This document shows positions 16,037 to 62,187 of a stretch of DNA of 64,000 nt, one piece after another. The stretch is from a virus (lineage: Duplodnaviria; Heunggongvirae; Uroviricota; Caudoviricetes). The notes beneath the pieces were generated by a model, which was not told the origin of the DNA, made no database searches, and worked only from the letters and a program-made list of their open reading frames with translations. The position numbers and the translations under genes are program-made. Location of the stretch: the IMG/VR virus record IMGVR_UViG_3300042940_001739. One strand, given 5' to 3'. The stretch's first letter is position 1. Every line of letters starts with the position of its first letter.

Positions 16037-17715
16037 TATTGCTGTCAGCATTTTCACTTAATGCACAAAGTGTTATCGCCCCAGGAGCTACATCATATAA
16101 CCAAAACACATCAAATCAAAGTGCAACAGGATTTTCGGTAACAGGTTTTACCCCGGCAGCTACTTTATTGGTTACTGTTGGACTAGTTAATCCACCAGCT
16201 GGAACAACTCTTAGATTTTCAACTACAGCAGGCGTTTCTGCAAGTACAGGATATACATTAACATCTAATTTTACTAGAATTAGTTTCACAGGAACTCAAG
16301 CAAATGTTAACACAGTATTAGCATCATTACAAGTAAACACCGGATCAACACCAGGAAATCTATATATAGCAGTAACTGCAACTGAAAATCCTACAGGCTA
16401 TTTTTATTTACCATCAAATGGTCACTTTTATAAACCGGTAGCTAGCGGCACAACATATACTAACGCAAAAGCAACAGCATTAAATACAACATTTAAAGGA
16501 CAGCAAGGTTATTTAGTAACTATCACATCACCTGATGAAGATGCCTTTATTTATAATAACGTTCCGCAATCTCAAATATGGTTTGCGTTATCAGATGCAG
16601 CACAAGAAGGATATTGGAGAATAGATGCCGGCCCAGAAAATGGAACTTTAATTAAAACAGCGAATGGACAGTATGCCGGAAACATTGCTAGTCAATATAA
16701 CAACTGGGCCGGAGGAGAACCTAACAACTCAGGCGGCGAACATTATGCGGTAACTAAATGGAACGGCTCTCAATGGAACGACTTACCTAATAGTTTCTCT
16801 TGTCCTTATGTAATTGAATATGGAACGTGGTCAGATCCAGGAAATCAAACATTTACGAATTTCTATACAGGATTCGTTACTCATCAGATTGCATGTAGCC
16901 CGGCAACATCGCCAACAGCACCAACCGGAACAGATGGATCTAGATCATTAGCTGGAACAGTTTCATTGTCAGCAGCTGCACCTGCAGGTAGCACAGTAGA
17001 TTGGTATGCTAATGCAATGGGTGGCAATGTTATATCGGGAGGATTTGGAACATTATCATTTACAACTCCTAGCATTTCAGCAACAACAACTTATTATGTT
17101 CAGGCTAGAAATTCAACAACGGGTTGTGTTAGTTCATCAAGAACTGCAGTAGTAGCAACAGTAAATTACCCAACACCATTTATTCATTCAGGATTCGTTT
17201 ATGGGTCTGAAGGAGTTGGTATATCTAATATACCAGTAAAGTTGTATAGAAAATTAAATGCAGAAACTAATTATACATTACACGGAACATATACAACAAC
17301 AAGCAACGGGCAATTTAATATAACAACTACTTTAGATATTGCATCGTATAATTTTCAAATAGTAATTGATAATTTAACAATTGCAAATCCAACTGTTAGT
17401 GATGCTCAATTTTTCAATCAAAAGATTTTATCACAAGGTTTTAGTTCTAAAGACTATTATAGATTGAATACTAATAACAATGCTATATTAACCATTGCAG
17501 ATGTTTATGAAGTATATCAAAAAACTTATAGTATACCATGGAATAATGGAGTTCCAACATATAGATTATTTAATCAATCAGAATGGAATATAATCAACTC
17601 ATCAACAACTGATTTAAGAACAACTTACCCAGGACTTCAAAGTTTAACAATACAAAGTCCTACTAATAATGGAACATCAAATATTTATTTAATAAGGACA
17701 GGATATGCGAATTAA
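16006..17715 (+). CDS. Secreted C-type-lectin-domain protein (possible receptor-binding/adhesin)
   Basis: Signal peptide MRNKIISWAIVLLSAFSLNAQS. CTLD signature WFALSD..EGYWRIDAG...YNNWAGGEPNNSGGEHYAVTKWNGSQWNDLPNSFSCPYVIEYG. The track start of 15967 is likely too early. Confidence 0.6.
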   Translation: MRNKIISWAIVLLSAFSLNAQSVIAPGATSYNQNTSNQSATGFSVTGFTPAATLLVTVGLVNPPAGTTLRFSTTAGVSASTGYTLTSNFTRISFTGTQANVNTVLASLQVNTGSTPGNLYIAVTATENPTGYFYLPSNGHFYKPVASGTTYTNAKATALNTTFKGQQGYLVTITSPDEDAFIYNNVPQSQIWFALSDAAQEGYWRIDAGPENGTLIKTANGQYAGNIASQYNNWAGGEPNNSGGEHYAVTKWNGSQWNDLPNSFSCPYVIEYGTWSDPGNQTFTNFYTGFVTHQIACSPATSPTAPTGTDGSRSLAGTVSLSAAAPAGSTVDWYANAMGGNVISGGFGTLSFTTPSISATTTYYVQARNSTTGCVSSSRTAVVATVNYPTPFIHSGFVYGSEGVGISNIPVKLYRKLNAETNYTLHGTYTTTSNGQFNITTTLDIASYNFQIVIDNLTIANPTVSDAQFFNQKILSQGFSSKDYYRLNTNNNAILTIADVYEVYQKTYSIPWNNGVPTYRLFNQSEWNIINSSTTDLRTTYPGLQSLTIQSPTNNGTSNIYLIRTGYAN

Positions 17716-21751: not shown

Positions 21752-22084
21752 ATGAAATTATATAATTTATTATTTGAGTCTAAACAAACTAATGATAAGT
21801 TTGAGGAATTTGCTGAAACACGTGGTAAGGGTGCTGCTAAGATAGCTTCCACTGCTGAAGAAAAAGGCGGGCTAGCATTATTAACATGGCATCATTTCAA
21901 AGTGAAAGCTTCGTATTATCGAAAAGCAACAGCAGGTAAATTTGATGTTGATTCTGCAAAAAAAGAATTTGCTGAGACTCTTAAAAAGATTTCATTAGAT
22001 ATGACGCCAATTGAATTTCAACGTGAAGTTGGACGTTTAGAAGTATTAGGCGAATTGATCATTCGAGATCAAAAGGGCAAATAA
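21752..22084 (+). CDS. Hypothetical protein
   Basis: ORF only. Confidence 0.3.
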   Translation: MKLYNLLFESKQTNDKFEEFAETRGKGAAKIASTAEEKGGLALLTWHHFKVKASYYRKATAGKFDVDSAKKEFAETLKKISLDMTPIEFQREVGRLEVLGELIIRDQKGK

Positions 22085-23693: not shown

Positions 23694-24443
23694 ATGATAT
23701 CATTAAAAACATTGATTATAGAAGGACGTTATGATAGCATCGTAACCGAACTGTCTAGAAAACTTTTAAAGGTTGTAAAAGATAGTTATGCGTCTGTTCA
23801 AGATCCAAAAGGGATGTTTGCAGGACAGAAGACATACTTTGCTAGCAATGAACGTGCTCCTGATATCACTGATGATCAACAATATAAAGAATGTTATTTT
23901 GAAGAAATTAGCAATGACACGATCCCATTGGAGTTCTATGTAACACTTAAAGTTCAATGGCGCCAAGGAATGGGTGATATGATATCAGATGGCGGAGCTT
24001 ATAATGATACATCAAAGTCAGCTGAACAGCCTCCATTAATTGAAGTTATATTTGAATTAGATCCAGATCAGTATCCAAACATATTATCTGAGGTGTCAAT
24101 GCAATTGCGTGACATTCTTCGTCATGAAATTGAACATTTAACTCAATCGGGTTGGAACATCAAGATGAGTAAATGGCATCGTAATGATCAAGCACAACGA
24201 GATAAAATAACATTAGGCAAGATACCACAAGCAAAATACTATACACTACCTAAAGAAATACCAGCAATGATCCAAGGATTGTATATGCGAGCTAAAAAGA
24301 CTCGATTACCATTCAAAGATGTTGTAGATGCTAATTTACAAAAAGGTGTTGAGAATGGTGTAATAACTGCTGAGGAAAAAGAACAAATCAAAGCAGTATG
24401 GAGAAAGTACTTGCCAAGTTTAGGAATAACACAGGAATTATAA
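23694..24443 (+). CDS. Hypothetical protein with capsid-targeting-like N-terminal peptide (MISLKTLIIE) and HExxH motif
   Basis: N-terminus matches the MIxLKxL(L/I)xE family at 57.8-62 kb. HEIEH at ~aa 150. Class III motif gatatttattaat abuts the ATG. The track start (GTG 23679) is probably an artefact. Confidence 0.4.
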   Translation: MISLKTLIIEGRYDSIVTELSRKLLKVVKDSYASVQDPKGMFAGQKTYFASNERAPDITDDQQYKECYFEEISNDTIPLEFYVTLKVQWRQGMGDMISDGGAYNDTSKSAEQPPLIEVIFELDPDQYPNILSEVSMQLRDILRHEIEHLTQSGWNIKMSKWHRNDQAQRDKITLGKIPQAKYYTLPKEIPAMIQGLYMRAKKTRLPFKDVVDANLQKGVENGVITAEEKEQIKAVWRKYLPSLGITQEL

Positions 24444-34845: not shown

Positions 34846-36897
34846 ATGAAACATATACTATTAGCATTAACATTAATGCAATCCATCTTCAGCTACACGC
34901 AGTGTGTAGGAGTACAGTCAGCAACAATTACACCGCCAGCTCCTGCAGGAGGCTATCTACCAAACACTCAAGTAACTGTGTGTTACACGATGGTAGGTTG
35001 GCCTGGATTAAGTGTTGGTGCCAATTGGTTGGAAGGATTTTCTATTACTGCAGGCCCAGGCTGGAATGCACCACAACCAGTTACCGCACCAGCAGATTGT
35101 AATGGGGGAACAACCACAGGATGGTTATGGATGAACTCAGTTACTTCAACAGCAACGGGACAGACTGCAGGGCCAGGATATTTTTATGAAGGACCTACCG
35201 GGCCACAAGACAACAACCCAGGCAATGATTGGGGAGATCAAGGCAATTGTACTTGGACTATGTGTTTCTCAGTTACAACGAAGCAATCATGTTTACCACT
35301 TAACCTCAACCTAGCAGTAACAGCAGGAGCAGATGGAACGTGGGGTTCGTGGTCTAATTCAAGTTGCCCAACAACACCTTACTCAGTATACACAGGAACA
35401 CTCAATGTACCAATCGTAACGGTTGCTAGCACAGTAAAGAAAGACACATGTGGTTTAGGATTAGGATCAATACTAGTAGTACCTAGTTCAACAACATATA
35501 CTGGACCATATACCTATACATGGACTCCTAATGTAGGAAACACAGCATTCATAGGAGGTTTAACGGCAGGAACATACTCAGTTCAAATTGGATATAACAA
35601 CGGATGCATTAAGTCAGCAACATATGTAGTAGGCAATGTTCAACCAACGTATGCAGCAACATCAACCGTTGTATCATGTTATGGAGATGCAACAGGCACA
35701 GCTACCGCAACAATGACACCACCAATTGGAAACATATCTTATAATTGGTCAAACACACAAACAACGCAAACTGCAACGGGACTAGCAGCAGGACCATATA
35801 CATGTACTATTAGCAATACATTGGGATGTACTAGCACAGTACCAGTAACTATAACACAGAACCCTCAACTGCTAATACAGAACTTGTCATTGACTAATGC
35901 AACCTGCGCAGATTCAGATGCTATAATTACATATAACGCAGTAGGAGGCGTCTCTCCTTATCAATATGCACTTAACGGTGTAGGTTCAACAAATAATGAA
36001 GATTCATTAGCAGGAGGCAACTATATTATATATGTACAAGACAATCTAGGATGCAACACTGATAGCACAGTAACATTGTTATCACCAACCGTTATTACTC
36101 CTAGCATTTCTCCTAATGTAACATTGCAATGTACTCCAGGGACATTTATATTTACAAACACATCGACTCCAGCAGTTAACATAGACAGTACTATAGTAAA
36201 TTGGGGTGATGGCAACATAGACACAACCACAACGTACGCACCTATACAGCACGTATACAACACGCCGGGACTTTGGGATATCATTGTATCAACGATTTCT
36301 GATTATGGTTGTGTGTATAGCGATACATTGTATACGTTGGTTGAAACAACTCAGCCGCCAACGGCTCAATTTACTATACAACCTAACCCAACTACTGTAT
36401 ATAATACACACGTGACTTGCGATGATTGGTCGTCAGGAGTGCCTGTGCAATGGTATTGGTCAGCTCCAGGTGCTATACCGATGTCAAGCACACAACTTGA
36501 GCCATGGTTCATGTTCCCAGAAGTAGCCGGCGAACATTACATTACTTTGACAGTAACAGATGCTTATGGTTGTTGGGACACAATAACACACAAGTTCATT
36601 ATAGAAGATGCCATGTTGATATTCGTCCCTAATACATTTACTCCGGGTGGAGCAGATGAATGGAACAATGTATTTCGATGGTCGATACTAGGAATCAATG
36701 AATCAGAATTCTATATGGAAATTTGGAATCGTTGGGGACAAATAATCTGGGAGTCACGAGACCCACACTCATATTGGGATGGAACATGTAATGGGCAACT
36801 AGTACCTGATGGTTCATACAGCTGGGTTATACGAGCAACTAATAAATTAGATGCAGGTAAAAGATCTTTTATAGGAACAATTAACGTTATAAAATAA
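34846..36897 (+). CDS. Secreted repeat-rich protein with T9SS type-B (gliding-motility-associated) C-terminal domain
   Basis: Signal peptide MKHILLALTLMQSIFSYTQ. C-terminus FVPNTFTPGGADEWNNVF...MEIWNRWGQIIWESRD...WDGTCNGQLVPDGSYSWVIRA matches the CHU_C / type-B CTD. Class III motif abuts the ATG. Confidence 0.65.
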   Translation: MKHILLALTLMQSIFSYTQCVGVQSATITPPAPAGGYLPNTQVTVCYTMVGWPGLSVGANWLEGFSITAGPGWNAPQPVTAPADCNGGTTTGWLWMNSVTSTATGQTAGPGYFYEGPTGPQDNNPGNDWGDQGNCTWTMCFSVTTKQSCLPLNLNLAVTAGADGTWGSWSNSSCPTTPYSVYTGTLNVPIVTVASTVKKDTCGLGLGSILVVPSSTTYTGPYTYTWTPNVGNTAFIGGLTAGTYSVQIGYNNGCIKSATYVVGNVQPTYAATSTVVSCYGDATGTATATMTPPIGNISYNWSNTQTTQTATGLAAGPYTCTISNTLGCTSTVPVTITQNPQLLIQNLSLTNATCADSDAIITYNAVGGVSPYQYALNGVGSTNNEDSLAGGNYIIYVQDNLGCNTDSTVTLLSPTVITPSISPNVTLQCTPGTFIFTNTSTPAVNIDSTIVNWGDGNIDTTTTYAPIQHVYNTPGLWDIIVSTISDYGCVYSDTLYTLVETTQPPTAQFTIQPNPTTVYNTHVTCDDWSSGVPVQWYWSAPGAIPMSSTQLEPWFMFPEVAGEHYITLTVTDAYGCWDTITHKFIIEDAMLIFVPNTFTPGGADEWNNVFRWSILGINESEFYMEIWNRWGQIIWESRDPHSYWDGTCNGQLVPDGSYSWVIRATNKLDAGKRSFIGTINVIK

Positions 36898-54838: not shown

Positions 54839-55051
54839 ATGTTAAAAGACGCAATCGCATTATTAAGTCAGTTCGGATTAGTTGATGGTAACACATTACC
54901 AGACTCGACGCCAGGCACACAGTATCAATTTAGAAGTTGTTCTCCGAACCTAATAGTACCAGCACCAGGTATGAAAACAGTTATATCAGGCCTTTTAAAG
55001 GATCATGGGTACACGGTTAAAGCAATCGGAACAATGTTAAAATTAGTTTAA
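54839..55051 (+). CDS. Hypothetical small protein
   Basis: ORF behind copy 9. Confidence 0.3.
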   Translation: MLKDAIALLSQFGLVDGNTLPDSTPGTQYQFRSCSPNLIVPAPGMKTVISGLLKDHGYTVKAIGTMLKLV

Positions 55052-55076
55052 AAAAAGTTTAAAAAAAGTTACCAAA

Positions 55077-55111
55077 AGATTAGGATCGCATCATTATTAT
55101 CCTTATCTTTA
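55077..55111 (+). promoter_or_regulatory. Class I bipartite promoter (copy 10) plus leader element aaggaagttagggaatagtccc
   Basis: Exact boxes with 15-bp spacer. Confidence 0.55.
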
Positions 55112-55165
55112 TTATAAGGAAGTTAGGGAATAGTCCCACAGTTTAAAAACCAAAAAAGAGAGATT

Positions 55166-55582
55166 ATGAAAAAAATTGAATTGATTGCAAAGTTAGAAGG
55201 CGCTAAAGAATTGACGTCAGTAGTATCGATCGACTTAGTATTGACAGCATTAAGTATGTTGGAAGACGAAGCTCCAAAAGGCTTCAGCCTCAAAGGCGCG
55301 CAGTTTGACTTGTTAATGGACAAGATCCAAAGTGCCGTAGACCAAATGGACCGACGCGAGTTGATAGATAAAGACTCCGCGGAGTTTGAGTTAGATTGGA
55401 ATAATGTAGTTAGCTTAAGTGATGTATCAGTCGACTTTGATTATGTATACAATAGCATCCGCGACGAGTTGGAGGAGCTTGTTGAAGACGAAGAAGAAGA
55501 TGAGGAAGCTGAAGCAGACGAAGAAGGTCCTGTTTATCCTGAGGAGTTAGATGAGTTAGCTGAATTAGACATAGAAGAATAA
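55166..55582 (+). CDS. Hypothetical protein with poly-acidic C-terminus
   Basis: EELVEDEEEDEEAEADEEG tail. Confidence 0.35.
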   Translation: MKKIELIAKLEGAKELTSVVSIDLVLTALSMLEDEAPKGFSLKGAQFDLLMDKIQSAVDQMDRRELIDKDSAEFELDWNNVVSLSDVSVDFDYVYNSIRDELEELVEDEEEDEEAEADEEGPVYPEELDELAELDIEE

Positions 55583-55647: not shown

Positions 55648-55797
55648 TGATAAGAAGCAAAAAAGAAATCCAGGACGCAAATGCATTATTAATAGCAATG
55701 CACGTATTCATTGTAGCCAATAACATGAAGCATCTATTCGGCGATGCACTCAATACAATTGGAGCCGCAATTGCTGAAATCCACCAGGAAAAATAAT
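55648..55797 (+). CDS. Small hypothetical protein (49 aa)
   Basis: ORF only. Confidence 0.2.
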
Positions 55798-55815
55798 TGA
55801 AACTTTTCTTGAAAA

Positions 55816-55850
55816 AGATTAGGTTAATTGAAATAAAATGCTTATCTTTA
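55816..55850 (+). promoter_or_regulatory. Class I bipartite promoter (copy 11, upstream box AGATTAGGTT) plus leader element aagcagaaagggaaaggccc
   Basis: 15-bp spacer conserved. Confidence 0.5.
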
Positions 55851-55895
55851 TATAAGCAGAAAGGGAAAGGCCCAAGACGCATTTATAATTAAATC

Positions 55896-56852
55896 ATGAG
55901 AGAGATGATGAACGTATTTGAACCAGTAAGAGTAAAAGGTAAATTAGTAGCAAAAAATGTTAAGTCAGGAGAGATTGCAGGAAAAGATTTGATCCGACAC
56001 ATTCAATTGCTTAATGCAGAAAAGAATCGTCAGTTGTTAATGGTTGCTCCAAACGGCAGAGTAACAAGACTTGATAGTACCACAACAAGCTCAACACCAT
56101 CAGCACCTAGCAAGATGTCATTCATGTCAGTAGTTGAGACTAGAGATCCTGAGACAATGTTTGGCAACTTGGAGCGTCTGACTAAAATGGTAGGGCGAGG
56201 CATTCAACCATCATTGGTCATCACAGGTATGGCAGGTGTCGGCAAGACGCACCTTGTTAAAGAGACACTAAAGCAAATGGGCTTGAAGGAGTCATATGAC
56301 TTTGAGCATTTCAAAGGTAAAGCAACCGCGGCAGGTTTGTATATGACATTGTATGCTAACTCAGACAAGATTGTAGTATTAGATGATTGTGATTCAGTAT
56401 TCAAAGATGATGATGCAGTCAATATCCTTAAGGCGGCACTTGACTCATATGACACTCGTCAGATCTCATATATCTCAACGAAGCCTTTGAAAGATGAGTT
56501 TGGCGAACCGATCCCATCACGCTTTGAGTTCACAGGTAAGATCATTTTTATCTCAAACATCAACCAAAGCAAATTAGATGAGGCGATCCGTAGCCGTAGC
56601 TTTGTAGCAGACATTAGCATGAACACTGAGCAAATGTTTACAAGAATGGAGCAGTTGTTACCTACCATGGAGTCACGTATTCCATTAGCGGCAAAGCAAC
56701 AAGCATTAGATGTTATGAAGGCGCTCCACGCTAAGTATGACGGAGTAGACATCAACCTAAGAAGTTTTATCAAAGCATCACGAATTGCGGCGATGGGCTT
56801 CCCGGCAGATGAAGTAGAGAATTTAATTGCAGAGCAGATCATCGCGGCATAA
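55896..56852 (+). CDS. P-loop NTPase (AAA-like ATPase)
   Basis: Walker A VITGMAGVGKTHL and Walker B KIVVLDDCD. Confidence 0.5.
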   Translation: MREMMNVFEPVRVKGKLVAKNVKSGEIAGKDLIRHIQLLNAEKNRQLLMVAPNGRVTRLDSTTTSSTPSAPSKMSFMSVVETRDPETMFGNLERLTKMVGRGIQPSLVITGMAGVGKTHLVKETLKQMGLKESYDFEHFKGKATAAGLYMTLYANSDKIVVLDDCDSVFKDDDAVNILKAALDSYDTRQISYISTKPLKDEFGEPIPSRFEFTGKIIFISNINQSKLDEAIRSRSFVADISMNTEQMFTRMEQLLPTMESRIPLAAKQQALDVMKALHAKYDGVDINLRSFIKASRIAAMGFPADEVENLIAEQIIAA

Positions 56853-56928
56853 GACATATCATATCTCTCAATATGAAAGAGGCCGGCATCGAAAGGTGTC
56901 GGTTTCTACTGTAAAATAAATCAAACAA

Positions 56929-56963
56929 ATCGGCAAAAAGATTAGGATCCTATCCCGATAAAC
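56929..56963 (+). promoter_or_regulatory. Class I bipartite promoter (copy 12) plus leader element tagcaattagggaaaggccc
   Basis: Exact boxes with 15-bp spacer. Confidence 0.55.
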
Positions 56964-57025
56964 CTTATCTTTATATATAGCAATTAGGGAAAGGCCCTAA
57001 GCTTAATTAACTAATAAGAGAGAGT

Positions 57026-57226
57026 ATGACAAAAGTAAAAGAGTTTGTAGCAGCAGAGTTAAAAGGATTAGAGAGAAGCTTCATTGCAACTCCAGACCGC
57101 AGAGAGTACCTAGAGTCATTTGCAAAAGCAAATCAAGGAAGCATGGACTTAGTGCTAATGCAAATGGCAATTCAATTCGGAGCCAAGCTAGCATTAGAGA
57201 ATGTACAAGAGTTATTAGGTAAGTAG
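57026..57226 (+). CDS. Hypothetical small protein
   Basis: ORF behind copy 12. Confidence 0.3.
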   Translation: MTKVKEFVAAELKGLERSFIATPDRREYLESFAKANQGSMDLVLMQMAIQFGAKLALENVQELLGK

Positions 57227-57486: not shown

Positions 57487-57506
57487 GCCAAATATAGCCA
57501 GAACAT

Positions 57507-57533
57507 GGGGGGAGTAATAGCCCCCCTTTTTTT
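57507..57533 (+). terminator. Rho-independent terminator GGGGGG-agtaatag-CCCCCC + T7
   Basis: Perfect 6-bp G:C stem plus T7. Confidence 0.65.
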
Positions 57534-57580
57534 GTGGGGTAGCCCCCCTAGTATAGACCCCTTTGACCCCCCATGATTTA

Positions 57581-57609
57581 GGGGGGTGGGGGAGGGTTTC
57601 GTTAAGGGG
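57581..57609 (+). other. G-quadruplex-type motif GGGGGGTGGGGGAGGGTTTCGTTAAGGGG
   Basis: Four G-runs of at least 3, with loops of 1, 1 and 9 nt. Embedded in a region of G and C homopolymer tracts (57507-57625). Confidence 0.4.
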
Positions 57610-57815
57610 TAGAACACCCCCATCTAGATAGTGGTGCTAATATATGTTTTTCTAGCGCGGGAAGATTTTTTGCTGAGGGAGAAGACTCTTTATTGTATAT
57701 GGCGGTGCCATAGAGCTATTATTAATATATAGTACGTTTCGGAGCCTCCCTACGCTAACGCTTCAGTCAGCACCTCACGTAGCCACCAAATTAACGATCT
57801 CCGATATTTATTAAT

Positions 57816-58310
57816 ATGATAAAGATGAAACACATCCTGCAGGAAATTGGAGAAGCTACGTTAGAGCCATATGCATATCGCATCAACTTCACAATAAACC
57901 AAGCACACTTTCGCACAGATGCAGCAACCCAATACGAAGTTGACTTTCGTACGGACGTCCAGGGTGTAATGGAAATACACTTTGCGGTAATAGATGATTC
58001 CGGAAGACCAGATCAATACACAGAAACAAATGAAGGGGTAACTTTGCGTGTTATGTCAACCATCACATCTATCATAAAAAAAGCAGTAGCGCGGTTATCC
58101 CCTCGCGAGATTGTAATATCAGCTGCTAAATCAGATCAACGTCGTATGCGTTTATATCGTCAATATATTGCTAAGCATTTAACGGGCTATGACGAAGTGG
58201 CATCTGATGCGGCTTGGTCTACATATAAAAAGACTCCTAAATTTGATTTAATGGGAATATGGAAGCGAAGCACACAATATGATGCTACGGGAATCAAGGA
58301 TGCACAATGA
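57816..58310 (+). CDS. CTS-family protein 1 (MIKMKHILQE...), hypothetical
   Basis: N-terminal MIxxKxILxE. C-terminal QYDATGIKDAQ shared with the next gene. Class III motif abuts the ATG. Confidence 0.45.
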   Translation: MIKMKHILQEIGEATLEPYAYRINFTINQAHFRTDAATQYEVDFRTDVQGVMEIHFAVIDDSGRPDQYTETNEGVTLRVMSTITSIIKKAVARLSPREIVISAAKSDQRRMRLYRQYIAKHLTGYDEVASDAAWSTYKKTPKFDLMGIWKRSTQYDATGIKDAQ

Positions 58311-58747
58311 TACGATTAGCATCTTTATTAGCGGAATCGGTCAGCATGCTCACAGCAACACAACGCATTGAGTCATTGCCACGTGGCACCATATTTTCAG
58401 ATGCTAAAAATATAACAAGCATTTTTGCGACTAGTAGATATGCATGGAATCAAGTAGCGGCTGCTGTCGACACCAACGCTGCGGATGGTCGAATGCGATC
58501 GGTAAGTATTCAAGACATACACATAACACAACCAAACATTCAAAGCAGCAAAGTCGTACAGATTCTGCGCAGATTACCCGAGTTGCCCGCTATACGCGTC
58601 GCGCAATTTGCAGATGGTTCGTTAGCTATCGCGGATGGCCATCATCGTCTTGTAGCCAATTGGGCATTAGGAAACCAACGCGTCCAAGTAATAATCGTGC
58701 CAGCATCATCACAATATGATTGGACGGGTATAAAGGATAAACCATGA
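58307..58747 (+). CDS. CTS-family protein 2 (MIRLASLLAE...) with ParB/Srx-like nuclease motif
   Basis: LAIADGHHRLVANWA (DGHHR motif of the ParB-like nuclease domain). C-terminal QYDWTGIKDKP. Confidence 0.45.
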   Translation: MIRLASLLAESVSMLTATQRIESLPRGTIFSDAKNITSIFATSRYAWNQVAAAVDTNAADGRMRSVSIQDIHITQPNIQSSKVVQILRRLPELPAIRVAQFADGSLAIADGHHRLVANWALGNQRVQVIIVPASSQYDWTGIKDKP

Positions 58748-59358
58748 TTAGATTAAAGGATTTATTAGCGGAAATCTCTCTGGGGAGCGTGACACCGTAC
58801 GCGACCCAATTTGTATGGCAGGACAATTGGGGCGACGCAGAATCATTCGAAGCAAAGTTTGAGGCCGATTCCCAGCCCATCACCATGACCATGACCAAAT
58901 GGAAACACAGTCAGCACGGAGACACCGGAGAATGGCAATTTGCTTATTTTGTTCGTAGCAAAGACGGTGAAGGTTGGACAACCACTACTCGCCAATCAGC
59001 GGCTCAAGGCGAATTAAACACATTTCGTCTTTTCAAGACAATAGGTGAAGCAATTCGCGATTTTGCCAATACGCAGCCCGGAGTGGATGTGATTGATGTT
59101 AGCGGAAGCGACACATATGACGCCAAGGGCGCACAAAAAACTAGAATATACACGGAATTGTTGCAAAGCAACTCTGACTTAGCAGCATTCAAAGTAGTGC
59201 AAGGGGCAACTCGTTTATTCCTGGTTCGCAAGACAGCAGGAGCGCAGCCTGATGCTACTGGTATTGAAGATGCTGATGATTATTGGACACCCGATGGAAG
59301 TGAGGATGCCACTCAATGGCGTGCTAATCGCGATGGCTCACAAACTGCATCATTTTAA
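58744..59358 (+). CDS. CTS-family protein 3 (MIRLKDLLAE...), hypothetical
   Basis: Shared N-terminus. C-terminal region contains DATGIEDAD. Confidence 0.45.
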   Translation: MIRLKDLLAEISLGSVTPYATQFVWQDNWGDAESFEAKFEADSQPITMTMTKWKHSQHGDTGEWQFAYFVRSKDGEGWTTTTRQSAAQGELNTFRLFKTIGEAIRDFANTQPGVDVIDVSGSDTYDAKGAQKTRIYTELLQSNSDLAAFKVVQGATRLFLVRKTAGAQPDATGIEDADDYWTPDGSEDATQWRANRDGSQTASF

Positions 59359-59370
59359 AACAAGGAAATT

Positions 59371-59901
59371 ATGATACGTTTAAAACGATTGCTTCATGAA
59401 TGGACGGGAGAATCATGGACATCTTGTCGACAATGGGCTTCACAACGCGGCAAGTACTTGGGCAGTGAAGAGGGCGTGTATGTAGGCGTCGAACTAACTA
59501 CTACACAATTTCAACTTACCTATGTAGGACCTGGGGTTGGAATTAGTCTTGCCCATGCAAAGGGTGGCACGGGCGATACATTGCATCAACTTTTCAATGT
59601 ATTGATTTGTGAAATTAATCCATGGTTAGCTGACAACAAGATTCGTCCTAACATTGCTGACATCACAACTAGATGCTCTGCACGCGATGCGGACTTTGAA
59701 TTGGTTATACAAGTACCACTTGAGCCGTCGGATCGCCCATGGCAAATGAATCATCGAGGTGGATGGGGACATGATCCTGGTGTAGGAGCAGTTAAATCTG
59801 CTTCGCCTGATACACCTGATCGTGAAATTGCTACTGAAATCACCATGATACCGAATGGTGGCGGGAAAATCACAACGCACTTTGCTGTATTCCCAATGTA
59901 A
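59371..59901 (+). CDS. CTS-family protein 4 (MIRLKRLLHE...), hypothetical
   Basis: Shared N-terminus. Confidence 0.45.
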   Translation: MIRLKRLLHEWTGESWTSCRQWASQRGKYLGSEEGVYVGVELTTTQFQLTYVGPGVGISLAHAKGGTGDTLHQLFNVLICEINPWLADNKIRPNIADITTRCSARDADFELVIQVPLEPSDRPWQMNHRGGWGHDPGVGAVKSASPDTPDREIATEITMIPNGGGKITTHFAVFPM

Positions 59902-59981
59902 ACGGATGTAGCCCTGAAAGGGGTTACGAACGTACTATGTTTTACAACGTACTATATTTATTTTTAAATTGCAAGGAAACA

Positions 59982-60506
59982 ATGATCAAACTAAAATCAA
60001 TACTTAAAGAAGGTTTTGCGTGGGAACGTGAACCTGGTAAGCCTTTACCTACCTTAGAACAAACAACTGCGGCATACGCTGCCAAAATGGGTGAACAAAG
60101 CGCTGAGCAACCTCTCTCTAATCCAATGGAAACGCCACTAAAAGAATCTGATGATATCTTTGATGAAATTGCTGATGAATTAGGAATCTCTTCAGAAGAA
60201 TTTGATTCAGCTTTAAATAAATCAATGGCTGAGCTAGATATCATTGAAAAAATATATATGAGTGATCATTATACAAAAGCAGAAGCAATGAGTATGATTG
60301 CTGATATGCTTGATGTTGATATCAATGAAGCTGCTGATGGTGTTAAACCTGATTACATTGATGCTGATGGCGATGGTGATGAAGAAGAGTCAATGAAACA
60401 AGCATTTGTTGACAAAGAAGATATGAACGAGTCATTTGCACGTCGTTTAATGGGTAACCTTAAAGGGTCTGAACATATTTTAACGGAAACGTTTAAACGT
60501 AAATAA
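59982..60506 (+). CDS. CTS-family protein 5 (MIKLKSILKE...), acidic
   Basis: Shared N-terminus. The track start of 59937 is probably too early (aaggaaacaATG favoured). Confidence 0.45.
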   Translation: MIKLKSILKEGFAWEREPGKPLPTLEQTTAAYAAKMGEQSAEQPLSNPMETPLKESDDIFDEIADELGISSEEFDSALNKSMAELDIIEKIYMSDHYTKAEAMSMIADMLDVDINEAADGVKPDYIDADGDGDEEESMKQAFVDKEDMNESFARRLMGNLKGSEHILTETFKRK

Positions 60507-60536
60507 AGAGCGTCTGCTACCTTAGACGGTATAGTT

Positions 60537-60569
60537 AAGAGCTTGGGGTTTCGACCTCGAGCTTTTTTT
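60537..60569 (+). terminator. Rho-independent terminator (gagcttggggt-ttcg-acctcgagc + T7)
   Basis: Hairpin plus T7. Confidence 0.5.
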
Positions 60570-60661
60570 GTGTCCCATATTTATTAATATAATAAGTTAT
60601 TTCTTTTAAGTTGGGAGGCCAACAATGTTATTAGTTTAGTTTTAATTTAAAGGAAATAGCT

Positions 60662-60811
60662 ATGGCAGCAAAAAAAGTAAACAGCAATAGTGCAAAGATG
60701 CATATCTCGAAACCGAAGGTTAAAAGACCTGGAGTTCATGCTAAAACTAAAACAAGTAGAAGCAAGAATGCAACTAATTATACTAAGGCATATGTAAGTC
60801 AAGGAAAATGA
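60662..60811 (+). CDS. Small very basic protein (49 aa, Lys/Arg/Ser/Thr-rich)
   Basis: MAAKKVNSNSAKMHISKPKVKRPGVHAKTKTSRSKNATNYTKAYVSQGK. ATGA overlap with the next gene. Below the track cut-off. Confidence 0.35.
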   Translation: MAAKKVNSNSAKMHISKPKVKRPGVHAKTKTSRSKNATNYTKAYVSQGK

Positions 60812-62187
60812 TAAAATTAAGATCTATATTAAACGAAATTATTACTGAGAAAACATCAGATAAGAAACTTCGAGTATTGTTTGTTGGTGATTCACAAACT
60901 GCAGCAGATTGGAGTTATGCTCGTATATTAGTACGATCTAAACAAATTGATGGAACGATTGTTGCTAAAAATGGAGCTTCAACATCTGCTATTTTAACAA
61001 TGCTTCAAAATAGCTTATCTGATAAGTATGATATTGTATCAATAATGGGTGGTGGTAATGATGGCGCTTCAAAATCGCCAGTAAATGCTATTAGAAATTT
61101 TGAAACAATGTTTGATATGGTACGTAACGTTGGAGCAAAATTAGTTGTTATAACTAATCCAACAAAAGATTTTGTTACTCCTGGAGATGCTTATTATAGA
61201 AAAGGCGGATACCCAGCTAACGATAAAATATCAGATTGGCTTCAAACTCAAACGTCTGCAGATGTTATAATTGATACTGGAGATTTCACGGAAATTGATT
61301 TTACAAAAGATCACGTTCATTTAGATTCGGACGCTCACAAAAAAATTGCAAGTCAATGGAAACGTCAAGTATTAGATTTAATTGATGTGGATTCAACCAA
61401 AGAAATTAAACCAGAAGACACTGCATTATTGCAAGTAGGCGATAAAGGTCCTGATGTTTTTAAAATGCAATCTGCTTTAATTAAATTAGGATATTCAGTT
61501 GGCCGCGAAGGTGTTGATGGTATTTTCGGCCCTCATACAAAAAGTGGATTAATTAAATTCCAACATGACATTACACAAGACCCAACCGGGAAATTAGATA
61601 CAATAACAAAAAATATTTTATTTAAAAAAGCTGGAGAAATTGGAACTGACACATCTGCGGGCGAAGAAGACACTGATATGTCATTAGCTTCATTGATTGG
61701 AATAGGATCAATATCAGGTGCAAATTATTCAGATCCAATATTAAAGCAAGCCGCAGCTTTGTTGGCTGGTTTTGAAGGATTCCGTTCTGAAGCTTATTGG
61801 GATGTTAATAATTGGAGAATTGGATACGGAAGTAGCACGGTAACTGATGCATCTGGTAACATTGAACATTTATCTGCAGATAGATCAGAAAAACCTGATA
61901 TAACTGTTACTAAGGAAGATGGAATTCGAGATTTATCACGTAGGCTGTCTGACGAGTTTATTCCGAAAGTATTACAACATGCAGACGGATTAAATAAAGG
62001 TACTGTTTCAGCATTAGTATCAATTGCATATAATTATGGTAGTTTACCTAGCAATGTTATCAGTGCAATGAAAACAAAAAATATAAATGATATTGCACAA
62101 GCAGTATTACAATTAAAATCACATAACGGCGGCATCAATGCAAAACGAAGACAAAAAGAAGCTGCTTACATATTAAATAGTAAATAA
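60808..62187 (+). CDS. CTS-family protein 6: multidomain SGNH/GDSL hydrolase + peptidoglycan-binding domain + GH24 (T4-lysozyme-like) muramidase
   Basis: MIKLRSILNE N-terminus. GDSL block I VLFVGDSQT and block V DHVHLDSDAH. PG_binding_1 repeat (LQVGDKGPDVFKMQSALIKLGYSVGREGVDGIFGPHTKSGLIKFQ). Lysozyme motif GFEGFRSEAYWDVNNWRIGYGS. Confidence 0.55.
   Translation: MIKLRSILNEIITEKTSDKKLRVLFVGDSQTAADWSYARILVRSKQIDGTIVAKNGASTSAILTMLQNSLSDKYDIVSIMGGGNDGASKSPVNAIRNFETMFDMVRNVGAKLVVITNPTKDFVTPGDAYYRKGGYPANDKISDWLQTQTSADVIIDTGDFTEIDFTKDHVHLDSDAHKKIASQWKRQVLDLIDVDSTKEIKPEDTALLQVGDKGPDVFKMQSALIKLGYSVGREGVDGIFGPHTKSGLIKFQHDITQDPTGKLDTITKNILFKKAGEIGTDTSAGEEDTDMSLASLIGIGSISGANYSDPILKQAAALLAGFEGFRSEAYWDVNNWRIGYGSSTVTDASGNIEHLSADRSEKPDITVTKEDGIRDLSRRLSDEFIPKVLQHADGLNKGTVSALVSIAYNYGSLPSNVISAMKTKNINDIAQAVLQLKSHNGGINAKRRQKEAAYILNSK

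What the first reader, a model, noticed from the sequence alone, without database searches (positions are those of the whole stretch)
58280..58800. Repeated gene-junction sequence (QYDxTGIKD-stop / MIRL-start) between internal-protein genes, a possible cassette-exchange substrate
The 3' ends of 57816..58310 and 58307..58747, and an internal site of 58744..59358, encode QYDATGIKDAQ, QYDWTGIKDKP and DATGIEDAD. The DNA junctions (caatatgatgctacgggaatcaaggatgcacaATGAtacgattagc... and caatatgattggacgggtataaaggataaaccATGAttagattaaag...) are about 45 bp of near-identical sequence, whereas the gene bodies differ. Conserved junctions flanking variable bodies are what homologous-recombination-driven cassette shuffling would leave behind, as at the T4 IP hypervariable locus.
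Basis: seen in the sequence. Interest (0 to 1): 0.55.

Follow-up and report, generated by a model that had tools for sequence, protein, structure and literature searches.

The report
Shuffled capsid-cargo gene cassettes in phage
The repeated sequence is the seam between neighbouring genes in a fast-changing array of phage genes. Each gene starts with the same 10-residue address label and several end with a second shared tail label, much like the injected 'internal protein' genes of phage T4, and genes are gained and lost exactly at these labels.

Summary
The repeat is real but overstated. Window 58273-58336 and 58710-58773 share 49/64 bases (77%), with a longest exact run of 13 nt. It is not "45 bp near-identical", and the third copy is an internal peptide motif, not a junction.

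Each junction packs three things together:
- a C-terminal peptide tag (Q-Y-D-x-T-G-I-K-D);
- a Shine-Dalgarno AAGGAT and an ATGA stop/start overlap;
- a 10-residue N-terminal leader, M-I-[RK]-L-x-x-L-L-x-E.

The leader heads six consecutive genes (57816-62187) with unrelated bodies: DUF6934, a ParB/Srx fold, and an SGNH+lysozyme lysin. It has the length and the L/I-x-E ending of the T4 capsid-targeting sequence cleaved by the gp21 protease.

In 27 or more related uncultured ~160-kb phages, which carry gp32 and UvsX, the array between conserved flanks varies from 0 to 5 tagged genes. A second tagged slot lies between RNR and FolE.

Gene gains and losses begin exactly at the leader ATG (window/L032/L269 nested series; L138 versus L014). 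One relative has a perfect 80-nt tag repeat flanking a cassette.

Tag codons are non-genomic (ATA, CGA, ACG). The full C-tag (KYDASGIDTPGDPTM-COOH) sits on 12 or more unrelated bodies and appears undescribed.

Verdict: a T4-IP-like hyperplastic cargo locus. Cassette exchange at the tags is supported. The junction's conservation comes mostly from peptide and translation constraints.

The parts
57505..57754 (+). Conserved GC-rich intergenic block upstream of the array. It holds a poly-G/poly-C hairpin plus a T-run terminator, then further C/G stems. It marks the left boundary of the variable region.
   Evidence: 73-82% identical in nearly all AAA-anchored relatives, while the genes to its right do not match. 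Stems are invariant with no covariation. No Rfam family matched.
57804..57815 (+). Promoter-like motif ATATTTATTAAT abutting the ATG of the first array gene.
   Evidence: ATATTTAT occurs 12 times on the + strand and 2 times on the - strand of the window. Nine occurrences lie within 40 nt upstream of a called gene start, two more lie upstream of the real starts of ORF5 (59982) and the 60662 gene, and 9444 has no gene start close by. The same motif abuts the ATG of a different first gene in L032 and L269.
57816..58310 (+). ORF1, 164 aa. Leader MIKMKHILQE, DUF6934 body, C-tag ...STQYDATGIKDAQ.
   Evidence: Pfam DUF6934, E 2e-7. Orthologues L014_a and L138_a (40-44% identity) begin MIRLK(Q/H)(L/I)LAE and end (F/Y)DWTGIKDK.
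58273..58336 (+). Junction J1. It comprises C-tag codons, the SD AAGGAT (58296-58301), the ATGA overlap (58307-58310) and leader codons of ORF2.
58307..58747 (+). ORF2, 146 aa. Leader MIRLASLLAE, ParB/sulfiredoxin-fold body (DGHHR motif), C-tag ...SSQYDWTGIKDKP. This is the cassette flanked by J1 and J2.
   Evidence: AF2 mean pLDDT 90.3; the C-tag (133-146) is coil with pLDDT falling from 73 to 49. Foldseek hits sulfiredoxin and ParB at E 2e-4. It is absent from all 27 AAA-anchored relatives. It has 83 homologues, most carrying both tags.
58710..58773 (+). Junction J2, with the same architecture as J1 (SD 58733-58738; ATGA 58744-58747).
   Evidence: Its GATTGGACGGG matches the C-tag DNA of the ORF1 orthologues in L014 and L138.
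58744..59358 (+). ORF3, 204 aa. Leader MIRLKDLLAE. It belongs to the commonest array family and is a distant paralogue of ORF1.
   Evidence: 24% identity to ORF1. Orthologues occur in most related arrays.
59251..59277 (+). Internal DATGIEDAD in ORF3. This is the family's C-tag, followed here by a 25-residue extension.
   Evidence: Orthologues stop 0-8 residues after the motif (...ADATGIE*...ADSTGIENQ*...ADTTGIKD*). In L032 the motif has decayed to DAPAWAED.
59371..59901 (+). ORF4, 176 aa. Leader MIRLKRLLHE, no C-tag.
   Evidence: The family is present in L023, L024, L029 and L268.
59982..60506 (+). ORF5, 174 aa, acidic. Leader MIKLKSILKE. It has its own promoter-like motif at 59954 and an SD AAGGAA.
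   Evidence: This is the conserved family F4 in most relatives.
60808..62187 (+). ORF6, 459 aa. Leader MIKLRSILNE, then SGNH/GDSL hydrolase, PG_binding_1 and phage lysozyme domains. It is a tagged cell-wall-degrading cargo protein and the right-hand conserved anchor of the array.
   Evidence: Pfam. The homologue in L032 carries Phage_lysozyme2+VanY behind the same leader.
23694..24443 (+). A distant gene with a variant leader, MISLKTLIIE, directly behind ATATTTATTAAT. It is probably a member of the same tagged class.
21752..22084 (+). Gene with the short leader MKLYNLLFE. Its body is 45% identical to a tagged 213-aa protein encoded beside the portal gene in L139.

Best explanation
Window 57.8-62.2 kb is a hyperplastic array of genes for capsid-packaged, probably injected, cargo proteins. 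It belongs to an uncultured ~160-kb phage with T4-type replication and recombination genes, and it is the functional analogue of the T4 internal-protein (IP) loci.

Every gene begins with a 10-residue leader, M-I-[RK]-L-[KR]-x-[LI]-[LI]-x-E. I infer that this leader is a capsid-targeting propeptide, cut after the Glu by a gp21-type prohead protease.

A subset of the genes ends in a second portable module: a disordered C-terminal tag. The full form is K-Y-D-[AW]-[ST]-G-I-D-T-P-G-D-P-x-M-COOH. The array form is Y-D-x-T-G-I-K-D-x-x. I infer that it is a short linear binding or sorting motif.

The repeated junction is simply these two labels laid end to end. The Lys-Asp codons (AAG GAT) double as the ribosome-binding site of the next gene, and an ATGA overlap couples translation. 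Most of its conservation therefore comes from selection on two peptides plus translation signals.

Because every cassette carries the same in-frame labels, the labels also act as linkers at which cassettes are inserted, deleted and moved. This happens between genomes and between the two tagged loci of one genome, presumably through the phage's UvsX recombination system working on short homologies.

Shown here:
- the anatomy of the junction;
- the portability of the tags across unrelated bodies;
- the hypervariability of the locus;
- indel boundaries falling at the tags.

Inferred:
- capsid targeting and cleavage;
- the role of the C-tag;
- the recombination mechanism.
For: (1) Leader.
- Six consecutive genes carry it, and the strict pattern occurs nowhere else in the 64 kb.
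- Across 54 distinct tags, M1, I2 and E10 are invariant and positions 7/8 are almost always L/I. Leu codons vary, which points to peptide-level selection.
- T4 IPII and IPIII begin MKTYQEFIAE, Alt begins MELITELFDE and gp24 begins MAKINELLRE.
- In T4 the first 10 residues of IPIII suffice for capsid targeting, and gp21 cuts after L/I-x-E (PMC9026906).

(2) Cargo.
- Tagged proteins include peptidoglycan hydrolases and a ParB/Srx-fold protein.
- At least 61 body clusters occur among 182 unique tagged ORFs.

(3) T4 kinship.
- Contigs that carry the same AAA-anchored array also carry gp32, UvsX, DnaB, RNR and FolE.
- Homologues of T4 gp20 and gp21 (31-35% identity) lie beside tagged genes in L081, L114, L139 and L168.

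(4) Hypervariability.
- Between the conserved flanks, 27 relatives hold 0-5 tagged genes of differing families.
- The RNR-FolE slot holds ParB-like, DUF6934-like, 139-, 138-, 163- or 231-aa cassettes in different genomes.

(5) Boundaries at the tags.
- The window/L032 high-identity patch starts at 58307.
- There is a nested series: promoter|ORF1-2-3-4 in the window, promoter|ORF2-3 in L032, promoter|ORF3 in L269.
- The slot between the ORF1 and ORF3 families has three states: empty in L014, ORF2 in the window, another gene in L138.
- L039 has a perfect 80-nt repeat flanking a cassette. L007 has a 33-nt 94% repeat in which AAGGATTAG is coding in one copy and non-coding in the other.

(6) Shared DNA ancestry of the tags.
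- ATA is used in 40/54 tags against 23% genomic use. CGA is 24/33 against 19%. ACG is 59-69% against 12%.

(7) The C-tag is a discrete add-on.
- Collinear ParB-like homologues occur with and without it.
- All 33 matches to its DNA pattern in IMG/VR lie at extreme C-termini. 24 of those ORFs show the strict leader, 4 begin with close variants, and most of the rest are cut by locus ends.
- There are no true matches in 185,579 prokaryotic genomes.

(8) Composition.
- GC is 0.42-0.475 over 57.8-59.9 kb against ~0.33-0.37 around it, which is consistent with imported cassettes.
Against: - No prohead protease, portal or capsid gene was found in the window or on a contig of the window's own lineage. 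The gp21 homologues come from a related ~200-220-kb lineage that shares the leader.
- There are no virion proteomics, so packaging, cleavage and injection are all inferred.
- J1 and J2 share only 13-nt exact runs, and their synonymous identity is barely above expectation (P 0.02-0.06).
- N-tag DNA is no more alike within a locus than between loci (66.2% versus 66.8%, permutation p 0.70). This argues against ongoing gene conversion.
- The second copy of the L039 80-nt repeat ends a contig. Its extent and the gene beyond it are unseen, and an assembly effect cannot be fully excluded.
- The non-genomic codon choice could reflect selection on mRNA or translation initiation rather than shared descent. 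The 54 tags are also not phylogenetically independent.
- The function of the C-tag is unknown.
Confidence: 0.7

Rival explanations
1. The junction is pure functional overprinting. It is conserved only because it encodes two selected peptides plus an SD and a start codon. On this view it plays no part in recombination, and cassette turnover happens by illegitimate recombination filtered by selection for in-frame, expressed products.
For: - 5 of the 17 same-amino-acid codon pairs between J1 and J2 are synonymous differences, and codon identity is 12/17 against 7.5-8.5 expected.
- The longest exact run is 13 nt.
- There is no within-genome homogenisation.
- Both tags persist on lone genes with no tagged neighbour.
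Against: - Four independent indel comparisons have boundaries exactly at the leader ATG or the C-tag.
- L039 has a perfect 80-nt tag repeat and L007 a 94% 33-nt repeat flanking single cassettes.
- Strongly non-genomic codons are shared by tags on unrelated bodies.
- T4-type recombination needs only patches shorter than 50 bp (PMC2839356), and UvsX is present.
Confidence: 0.2
2. The repeat is the residue of a recent tandem duplication of a whole gene, with the bodies having since diverged.
For: ORF1 and ORF3 are distant paralogues across their whole length (24% identity, E 5e-6).
Against: - The two genes that share the 64-nt repeat have unrelated folds. ORF1 is DUF6934. ORF2 is ParB/Srx.
- ORF2 is absent from 27 relatives, yet it has 83 homologues, most of which sit at another locus.
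- The C-tag is present or absent on otherwise collinear homologues.
Confidence: 0.03
3. The junction is a target for a dedicated site-specific recombinase, making this an integron-like cassette system.
For: The cassettes are promoter-less genes in one orientation behind a common promoter-like motif, and the repeated boundary sequence is short.
Against: - No integrase or recombinase domain turned up among the proteins I scanned in the window or the neighbouring loci.
- The boundary repeat is translated in frame and has no attC-like inverted-repeat structure.
- Boundary sequences vary at synonymous sites.
Confidence: 0.04
4. The leader is not a capsid-targeting signal but a translation or mRNA element, or some other sorting signal. 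On this view the genes are ordinary early or accessory genes.
For: - Unusual codons (ATA, CGA) occur right after the ATG.
- No head genes were seen in the window.
- The array lies among non-structural genes: sigma factor, AAA ATPase, DUF5856.
Against: - Conservation is at the amino-acid level with variable Leu codons.
- The leader matches the T4 leaders in 10-residue length and L/I-x-E ending.
- The T4 IP genes likewise lie outside the head module.
- The same leader heads genes interleaved with portal and gp21 homologues in L139, L081 and L114.
- The cargo includes cell-wall hydrolases typical of virion-delivered enzymes.
Confidence: 0.1

Closest known systems
T4/T-even internal protein (IP) loci and the capsid-targeting sequence (Repoila et al. 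1994, cited in PMC3012670, PMC12373910 and PMC2839356; Mullaney & Black, cited in PMC9026906)
   Same: - A 10-residue N-terminal leader ending in L/I-x-E is shared by otherwise unrelated small proteins.
- The genes sit in two distinct, highly polymorphic loci outside the head module.
- There are dozens of cargo variants.
- The leader DNA is repeated between neighbouring genes. T4 ipII and ipIII are identical over their first 32 nt.
   Different: - There is no sequence homology to any T4 IP.
- The leader consensus is different (MIRLKxLLxE versus MKTYQEFIAE).
- The host is probably Bacteroidota.
- The cargo includes multi-domain lysins and a ParB/Srx protein.
- Many members carry an additional conserved C-terminal tag, which I did not find described for T4 IPs.
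- In the window the cassettes are fused by ATGA overlaps with no intergenic spacer.
PeSL (promoter-early stem-loop) mediated modular shuffling in T4-type phages (Arbiol et al. 2010, PMC2839356; Comeau et al. 2014, PMC4122927)
   Same: - Short conserved sequences flanking ORFan cassettes serve as recombination linkers inside hyperplastic regions.
- Single-cassette insertions and deletions distinguish close relatives.
- Poly-G/poly-C stem-loops and promoter motifs occur in the same region (57505-57754, and the multi-copy intergenic repeats at 55.0-57.0 kb).
   Different: The linker at J1 and J2 is coding sequence (the end of one protein plus the start of the next), not an intergenic promoter-terminator element. 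No mini-circles have been demonstrated.
T4 Alt, with propeptides at both termini (PMC9026906)
   Same: It is a capsid-packaged cargo protein with signals at both ends.
   Different: The C-terminus of Alt is removed at a gp21 L/I-x-E site. The C-tag here contains no such site and looks like a terminal binding motif.
Ejection (E) proteins of phiKZ/SPN3US-like giant phages
   Same: There are many diverse head-internal proteins, processed by a gp21-related protease after Glu.
   Different: Those phages have long propeptides with S/A-x-E sites and no common 10-residue leader, and their genome type is different.

Membership tests
T4-type internal/capsid-targeted proteins (CTS system) | A short (~10 aa) N-terminal leader shared by proteins with unrelated bodies. 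| tested here: met
   There are six genes in the window. The held loci give 182 unique tagged ORFs in 61 body clusters.
T4-type internal/capsid-targeted proteins (CTS system) | The leader ends in the gp21 cleavage motif L/I-x-E. | tested here: met
   E10 is invariant and position 8 is L/I in nearly all of the 54 distinct tags. T4 leaders were read from AF158101 for comparison. The motif is as given in PMC9026906.
T4-type internal/capsid-targeted proteins (CTS system) | The genome encodes a gp21-type (S77) prohead protease and a T4-type portal. | tested here: inconclusive
   - Homologues at 31-35% identity to T4 gp20 and gp21 lie beside tagged genes in L081, L114, L139 and L168.
- None was found in the window or on contigs of its own lineage.
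- The 80 loci returned for the protease were all from the other lineage.
T4-type internal/capsid-targeted proteins (CTS system) | The proteins are packaged in the head, cleaved, and injected with the DNA. | not testable with these tools
   This needs virion proteomics or N-terminal sequencing.
T4-type internal/capsid-targeted proteins (CTS system) | The genes lie in discrete loci whose content is highly polymorphic among relatives. | tested here: met
   
T4-type internal/capsid-targeted proteins (CTS system) | Sequence homology to known T-even IPs. | tested here: not met
   - There are no PHROG or Pfam IP families.
- tblastn of ORF2 and ORF5 against 50,697 phage records found nothing.
- Homology is not required for the functional class, because T-even IPs are themselves mutually unrelated.
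PeSL-type shuffling cassettes | The cassette is flanked by an intergenic promoter plus a stem-loop element. | tested here: not met
   J1 and J2 are coding overlaps with no intergenic DNA. PeSL-like elements exist only outside the ORF1-4 block.
Integron-like cassette array | A linked integrase and attC-type recombination sites. | tested here: not met
   No recombinase domain turned up in the proteins scanned. The junctions lack inverted-repeat structure.
ParB/Srx superfamily (ORF2 body only) | The ParB N-terminal/sulfiredoxin fold with a conserved DGHHR-type motif. | tested here: met
   AF2 mean pLDDT 90.3. Foldseek hits sulfiredoxin at E 2e-4 and also ParB and Noc. DGHHRL is invariant.

The most novel reading that the evidence does not exclude
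These phages use a two-ended address system on their capsid cargo.

One end is a T4-like N-terminal targeting and cleavage leader. The other is a previously undescribed ~15-residue disordered C-terminal tag, K-Y-D-x-[ST]-G-I-D-T-P-G-D-P-x-M-COOH. It is found on at least a dozen unrelated cargo families and nowhere in reference prokaryotic genomes.

The C-tag would specify a second step, for example docking to the portal, core or DNA, or ordered ejection into the cytoplasm. Cell-wall hydrolases lack it, whereas a DNA-directed ParB/Srx protein has it.

Because both labels are in frame and shared, they would also act as universal splice points. Any cargo gene could then be moved, ready-addressed, between the two cargo loci and between phages.
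Probability: 0.35. Interest if true: 0.75.

Novelty: new variant of a known kind. Interest (0 to 1): 0.58.

Why it matters
Injected internal proteins are a front line of the phage-host arms race. T4 Ip1-3 each disarm a different GmrSD restriction enzyme (PMC12373910). They have been studied almost only in T-even coliphages.

This window shows the same strategy in an abundant, uncultured freshwater lineage that probably infects Bacteroidota. The leader is easy to recognise and flags at least 60 candidate cargo families, including lysins and a ParB/Srx protein, as likely injected effectors.

The locus offers three things:
- a sequence rule for mining anti-defence or host-takeover cargo from metagenomes;
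- natural examples of in-frame coding linkers at which genes are gained and lost, which extends the PeSL idea from regulatory DNA to protein tags;
- a new C-terminal tag whose role can be tested, and which might be exploited for loading foreign proteins into capsids, as the T4 CTS already is.

Tried and rejected
- Near-identical or distant DNA relatives among cultured phages: none. tblastn of ORF2 and ORF5 against the phage collection: none.
- IMG/VR relatives of ORF3 and ORF6 found by peptide patterns: none. The AAA ATPase anchor worked instead.
- Rfam search on the GC-rich upstream block: only chance-level hits. RNAalifold gave invariant G/C stems with no covariation, so I do not claim an RNA.
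- Linking the window lineage to a gp21 protease:
  - T4 and L139 head proteins found nothing in the window or on same-lineage loci.
  - The IMG/VR scan with the L139 protease returned only the 80 closest loci (88-100% identity), all from another lineage.
  - PHROGs on genes beside a tagged gene in the 169-kb contig (L086) gave only weak "virion structural protein" hits.
- Concerted evolution of the tags within genomes:
  - The first test was biased by pattern-selected loci.
  - The unbiased repeat was negative.
- Systematic search for high-identity patches bounded by tags across all locus pairs: only the window/L032 case stood out.
- C-tag pattern in 185,579 prokaryotic genomes: one match, an internal HYDHNGIDTPPDPG in a 67%-GC bacterium, which is irrelevant.
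- C-tag as a gp21 site: rejected on sequence grounds, because the full tag has no L/I-x-E.
- The metagenome scan with ORF3 gave only two short loci, though both were informative.
Full report
**1. The observation**

- ORF1 (57816-58310) ends ...STQYDATGIKDAQ.
- ORF2 (58307-58747) ends ...SSQYDWTGIKDKP.
- ORF3 (58744-59358) contains ...QPDATGIEDAD at 59251-59277, 25 residues before its stop.

The repeat finder returns one direct repeat, 58273-58336 versus 58710-58773: 64 nt at 77% identity. This cannot be chance. About 1e-9 such pairs are expected in the region, and shuffles reach only 34-40 identities out of 64.

It is not, however, "about 45 bp of near-identical sequence". There are 15 mismatches and the longest exact run is 13 nt. 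Of the 17 codon pairs that encode the same residue, 12 are identical, against 7.5-8.5 expected from codon usage (P 0.02-0.06).

The third site is only 63% similar over 32 nt and is followed by neither a stop nor a start. The sequence therefore holds two junctions plus one internal motif.

**2. What the junction is made of**

Read in frame, each junction has three parts:
- (a) the last 11-13 codons of one protein, the "C-tag" S-x-Q-Y-D-x-T-G-I-K-D-x-x;
- (b) AAGGAT (58296-58301 and 58733-58738) five bases ahead of the next ATG, so the Lys-Asp codons double as a Shine-Dalgarno site, plus the ATGA overlap;
- (c) the first ten codons of the next protein, M-I-R-L-x-x-L-L-A-E.

In relative L007, two junctions share AAGGATTAGAATGATAAAATTAAAAAC at 94%. 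AAGGATTAG encodes K-D-stop in one copy and is untranslated in the other. Part of the conservation is therefore at the level of the translation signal.

**3. The leader defines an array**

The strict pattern M-[ILV]-[RK]-[LMIV]-x-x-[LIVM]-[LIVM]-x-E occurs six times in the 64 kb, at the starts of six consecutive genes: 57816, 58307, 58744, 59371, 59982 and 60808.

Their bodies are unrelated:
- ORF1 is DUF6934.
- ORF2 has a ParB/sulfiredoxin fold: Pfam and PHROG hints, AF2 pLDDT 90, Foldseek to Srx and ParB at E 2e-4.
- ORF3 is a distant paralogue of ORF1 (24% identity).
- ORF4 and ORF5 are orphans.
- ORF6 is a 459-aa SGNH hydrolase + PG_binding_1 + phage lysozyme protein.

Two further genes carry variant leaders: 21752-22084 (MKLYNLLFE) and 23694-24443 (MISLKTLIIE).

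Across 54 distinct tags from related loci, M1, I2 and E10 are invariant and positions 7/8 are L/I, encoded by varied Leu codons.

Read directly from the T4 genome, IPII and IPIII start MKTYQEFIAE, Alt starts MELITELFDE and gp24 starts MAKINELLRE. In T4, the first ten residues of IPIII suffice for capsid targeting, and gp21 cuts after L/I-x-E (PMC9026906). [quoted passage not shown]

The window leader therefore has the length, position and terminal motif of a T4-type CTS.

**4. What kind of phage**

There is no DNA or protein match to cultured phages for the array.

The window encodes GroEL, DNA and RNA ligases, thymidylate synthase, a sigma-70-type factor and glycosyltransferases. It also encodes proteins with T9SS sorting domains (Por_Secre_tail, CHU_C, SprB), which points to a Bacteroidota host.

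The AAA ATPase at 55896-56852 anchored 27 IMG/VR loci at 62-80% identity, several on ~158-160-kb contigs. Those same contigs carry gp32, UvsX, a DnaB-type helicase, class II RNR and FolE/QueD. The lineage therefore has T4-type replication and recombination genes.

T4 gp20 (portal) and gp21 (prohead protease) homologues at 31-35% identity were found beside tagged genes in L081, L114, L139 and L168. There the leader-bearing genes are interleaved with portal, protease and small core-like proteins whose N-termini also end in L/I-x-E.

That lineage (~200-220 kb) is not the window's own. I could not reach the head module of the window lineage. This is the main gap in the argument.

**5. The locus is hyperplastic**

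Two flanks are conserved at ~70-80% DNA identity:
- left: the AAA gene, a small gene, and a GC-rich intergenic block (57505-57754);
- right: a 48-aa basic protein, the tagged lysin, and DUF5856.

Between them, relatives hold 0-5 tagged genes from different families plus untagged inserts, and most of 57.8-60.5 kb has no DNA match at all. ORF2 is absent from all 27 relatives.

The exact ORF2 protein recurs with unchanged neighbours in several metagenomes, so the window arrangement is a real circulating genotype.

A second tagged slot lies between RNR and FolE in the same genomes. In different genomes it holds:
- a ParB-like gene alone;
- a DUF6934-like gene alone;
- 139-aa + ParB-like;
- 139 + 138 + ParB-like;
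- 163-aa + ParB-like;
- ParB-like + 231-aa

. Most ORF2 homologues live there. In the window and in L032, the ParB-like cassette sits in the other locus.

T4 likewise keeps its IP genes in two loci, ipII/ipIII and ipI (PMC12373910).

**6. Boundaries of change coincide with the labels**

- (i) Window versus L032. The flanks are 69-74% identical, but 58307-59138 is 86% identical (ORF2 is 96% identical at protein level). The patch begins at the A of the ORF2 ATG.
- (ii) The promoter-like ATATTTATTAAT abuts the ATG of ORF1 in the window, of the ORF2 homologue in L032, and of the ORF3 homologue in L269. This is a nested series in which whole cassettes are present or absent, starting precisely at the start codon.
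- (iii) The slot between the ORF1 family and the ORF3 family is empty in L014/L015/L027, holds ORF2 in the window, and holds an unrelated 128-aa tagged gene in L138. The ORF1 orthologues there end (F/Y)DWTGIKDK with the same GATTGGACGGG as J2. This suggests that J2 is the resident ORF1-family tag and that the ParB-like body was inserted upstream of it.
- (iv) L039 has a perfect 80-nt direct repeat (C-tag + stop + 30 nt) either side of a 231-aa cassette. The second copy ends the contig, so its full extent is unseen.
- (v) L041 and L033 show 78-85% repeats of tag or intergenic sequence around single cassettes.

**7. DNA-level signal in the tags**

Tags on unrelated bodies prefer codons that are rare in the genome:
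- ATA for Ile2: 40/54 against 23% genomic use;
- CGA for Arg3: 24/33 against 19%;
- ACG for Thr: 59-69% against 12%, in both the leader and the C-tag

. This points either to shared DNA ancestry of the tags (labels copied along with, or onto, cassettes) or to nucleotide-level selection. The tags are not independent samples, so the P-values overstate the case.

Conversely, N-tag DNA is no more alike within a locus than between loci (66.2% versus 66.8%, permutation p 0.70). There is no sign of ongoing gene conversion.

**8. The C-tag**

- In the alignment of 36 ParB-like homologues, the body ends at ...KVNLVKL. The tag (T)KYD(A/W)(S/T)GIDTPGDP(T/N)M is either present or cleanly absent.
- A degenerate DNA pattern for it has 33 matches in 2.9 million viral contigs. 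All lie at extreme C-termini. 24 of the ORFs show the strict leader, 4 begin with close variants (MISLK-, MIRLQ-), and most of the rest are cut by locus ends. The bodies number at least a dozen unrelated kinds.
- The one match in 185,579 prokaryotic genomes is irrelevant.
- AF2 models it as a low-confidence coil on a confidently folded domain.
- The peptidoglycan hydrolases, the conserved acidic family (ORF5) and the largest tagged family lack it.
- In ORF3 the motif is internal because this allele has a 25-residue extension. In L032 the same position has decayed to DAPAWAED, which suggests the motif matters only at or near the C-terminus.
- I found no description of such a tag in the papers I read. 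Absence from that library is not proof of novelty.

**9. Mechanism and verdict**

Best explanation (confidence ~0.7): this is a T4-IP-like cargo array. The repeated junction is the concatenation of a C-terminal sorting or binding tag, a ribosome-binding site with translational coupling, and an N-terminal capsid-targeting/cleavage leader.

Its conservation is mainly functional. Because the labels are shared and in frame, they are also the places where cassettes are gained, lost and exchanged. The likely agent is UvsX-type recombination on short homologies. T4 needs patches shorter than 50 bp, and PeSL elements play the analogous role in intergenic DNA (PMC2839356).

The kind of locus and the shuffling are right. 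The "near-identical DNA left behind by recombination" and the "three junctions" are not.

Rivals:
- Pure overprinting with no recombination role: ~0.2.
- The leader is not a CTS: ~0.1.
- Site-specific recombination: ~0.04.
- Tandem duplication: ~0.03.

Novelty: a new variant of a known kind. It has a new leader consensus, a new host range, at least 60 cargo families, coding rather than intergenic linkers, and an apparently undescribed C-terminal tag.

Noticed in passing
window 57505-57754: GC-rich intergenic block in an AT-rich genome. It has a GGGGGG-N8-CCCCCC hairpin with a T-run, followed by further invariant C-run/G-run stems and a conserved GGTTATATATGTTTTTCTAGC segment. It is 73-82% conserved in nearly all relatives, more than the adjacent genes. 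There is no Rfam hit and no covariation. It resembles the poly-G/poly-C stem-loops of PeSL elements.
   Followed up: partly
window 2539, 9444, 17681, 18962, 23682, 29231, 34834, 57804, 59954, 60577, 63310, 63322: The motif ATATTTAT is strongly strand-biased (12 on + versus 2 on -). Nine occurrences lie within 40 nt upstream of a called gene start, two more lie upstream of the real starts of ORF5 (59982) and the 60662 gene, and 9444 has no gene start close by. The genes behind it include GroEL, the tagged arrays and an Hc1-like gene. In three cases it abuts the ATG (ATATTTATTAAT|ATG), which implies very short or absent leaders. The same motif precedes head-module genes in L139 and candidate virion genes in L086. 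It is probably this lineage's late-type promoter.
   Followed up: partly
window 55037-55180, 55790-55870, 56910-57040: Multi-copy intergenic repeats. Each matches many separate places (75-90% identity, 40-150 nt) in every related locus. They are likely repeated promoter/terminator units (PeSL-like) of the early region.
   Followed up: no
window 11463-13337, 16006-17715, 34846-36897: Phage-encoded proteins with Bacteroidota type IX secretion sorting domains and adhesin-type repeats: Por_Secre_tail with cohesin; Ig_7 with C-type lectin; CHU_C with SprB and PKD. They suggest a Bacteroidota host, and possibly phage-directed display of surface proteins.
   Followed up: partly
window 60808-62187 versus L032 3316-4938: The tagged lysin at the right end of the array is itself domain-shuffled among relatives. 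It is SGNH+PG_binding_1+Phage_lysozyme in the window and Phage_lysozyme2+VanY in L032, and lengths of 360-637 aa occur elsewhere, always behind the same leader and the same 48-aa basic upstream gene.
   Followed up: partly
L033 7575-9209; L036 8001-9228; L041 4646-7222; L048; L069: The second tagged slot sits immediately upstream of a FolE/QueD/radical-SAM (7-deazaguanine-type) DNA-modification cluster. A ParB/Srx-fold cargo protein is the commonest occupant. A functional link between injected ParB-like proteins and DNA modification is possible but untested.
   Followed up: no
window 57800-59900: ORF1-ORF4 have GC 0.42-0.475, against ~0.33-0.37 for the surrounding genes. This is consistent with import of these cassettes from a higher-GC relative.
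   Followed up: no
proteins P0070, P0074, P0075, P0078, P0079 (homologues of window 58307-58747): Some ParB-like homologues carry a different leader, MK(N/H)L(x)(T/G)F(E/K)DFLNE, which is closer to the T4 MKTYQEFIAE. The same cargo family has apparently been re-addressed for different phage groups.
   Followed up: no
L086 (IMGVR_UViG_3300031857_000018, 169 kb), minus strand 334-870: The largest tagged family (38 members, ~178 aa, MIRLKQLLxEIS..., no C-tag) lies directly after a 521-aa protein with weak 'virion structural protein' PHROG hits, in a genome that also has the AAA-anchored array. It may be a core or scaffold-associated member of the tagged class.
   Followed up: partly
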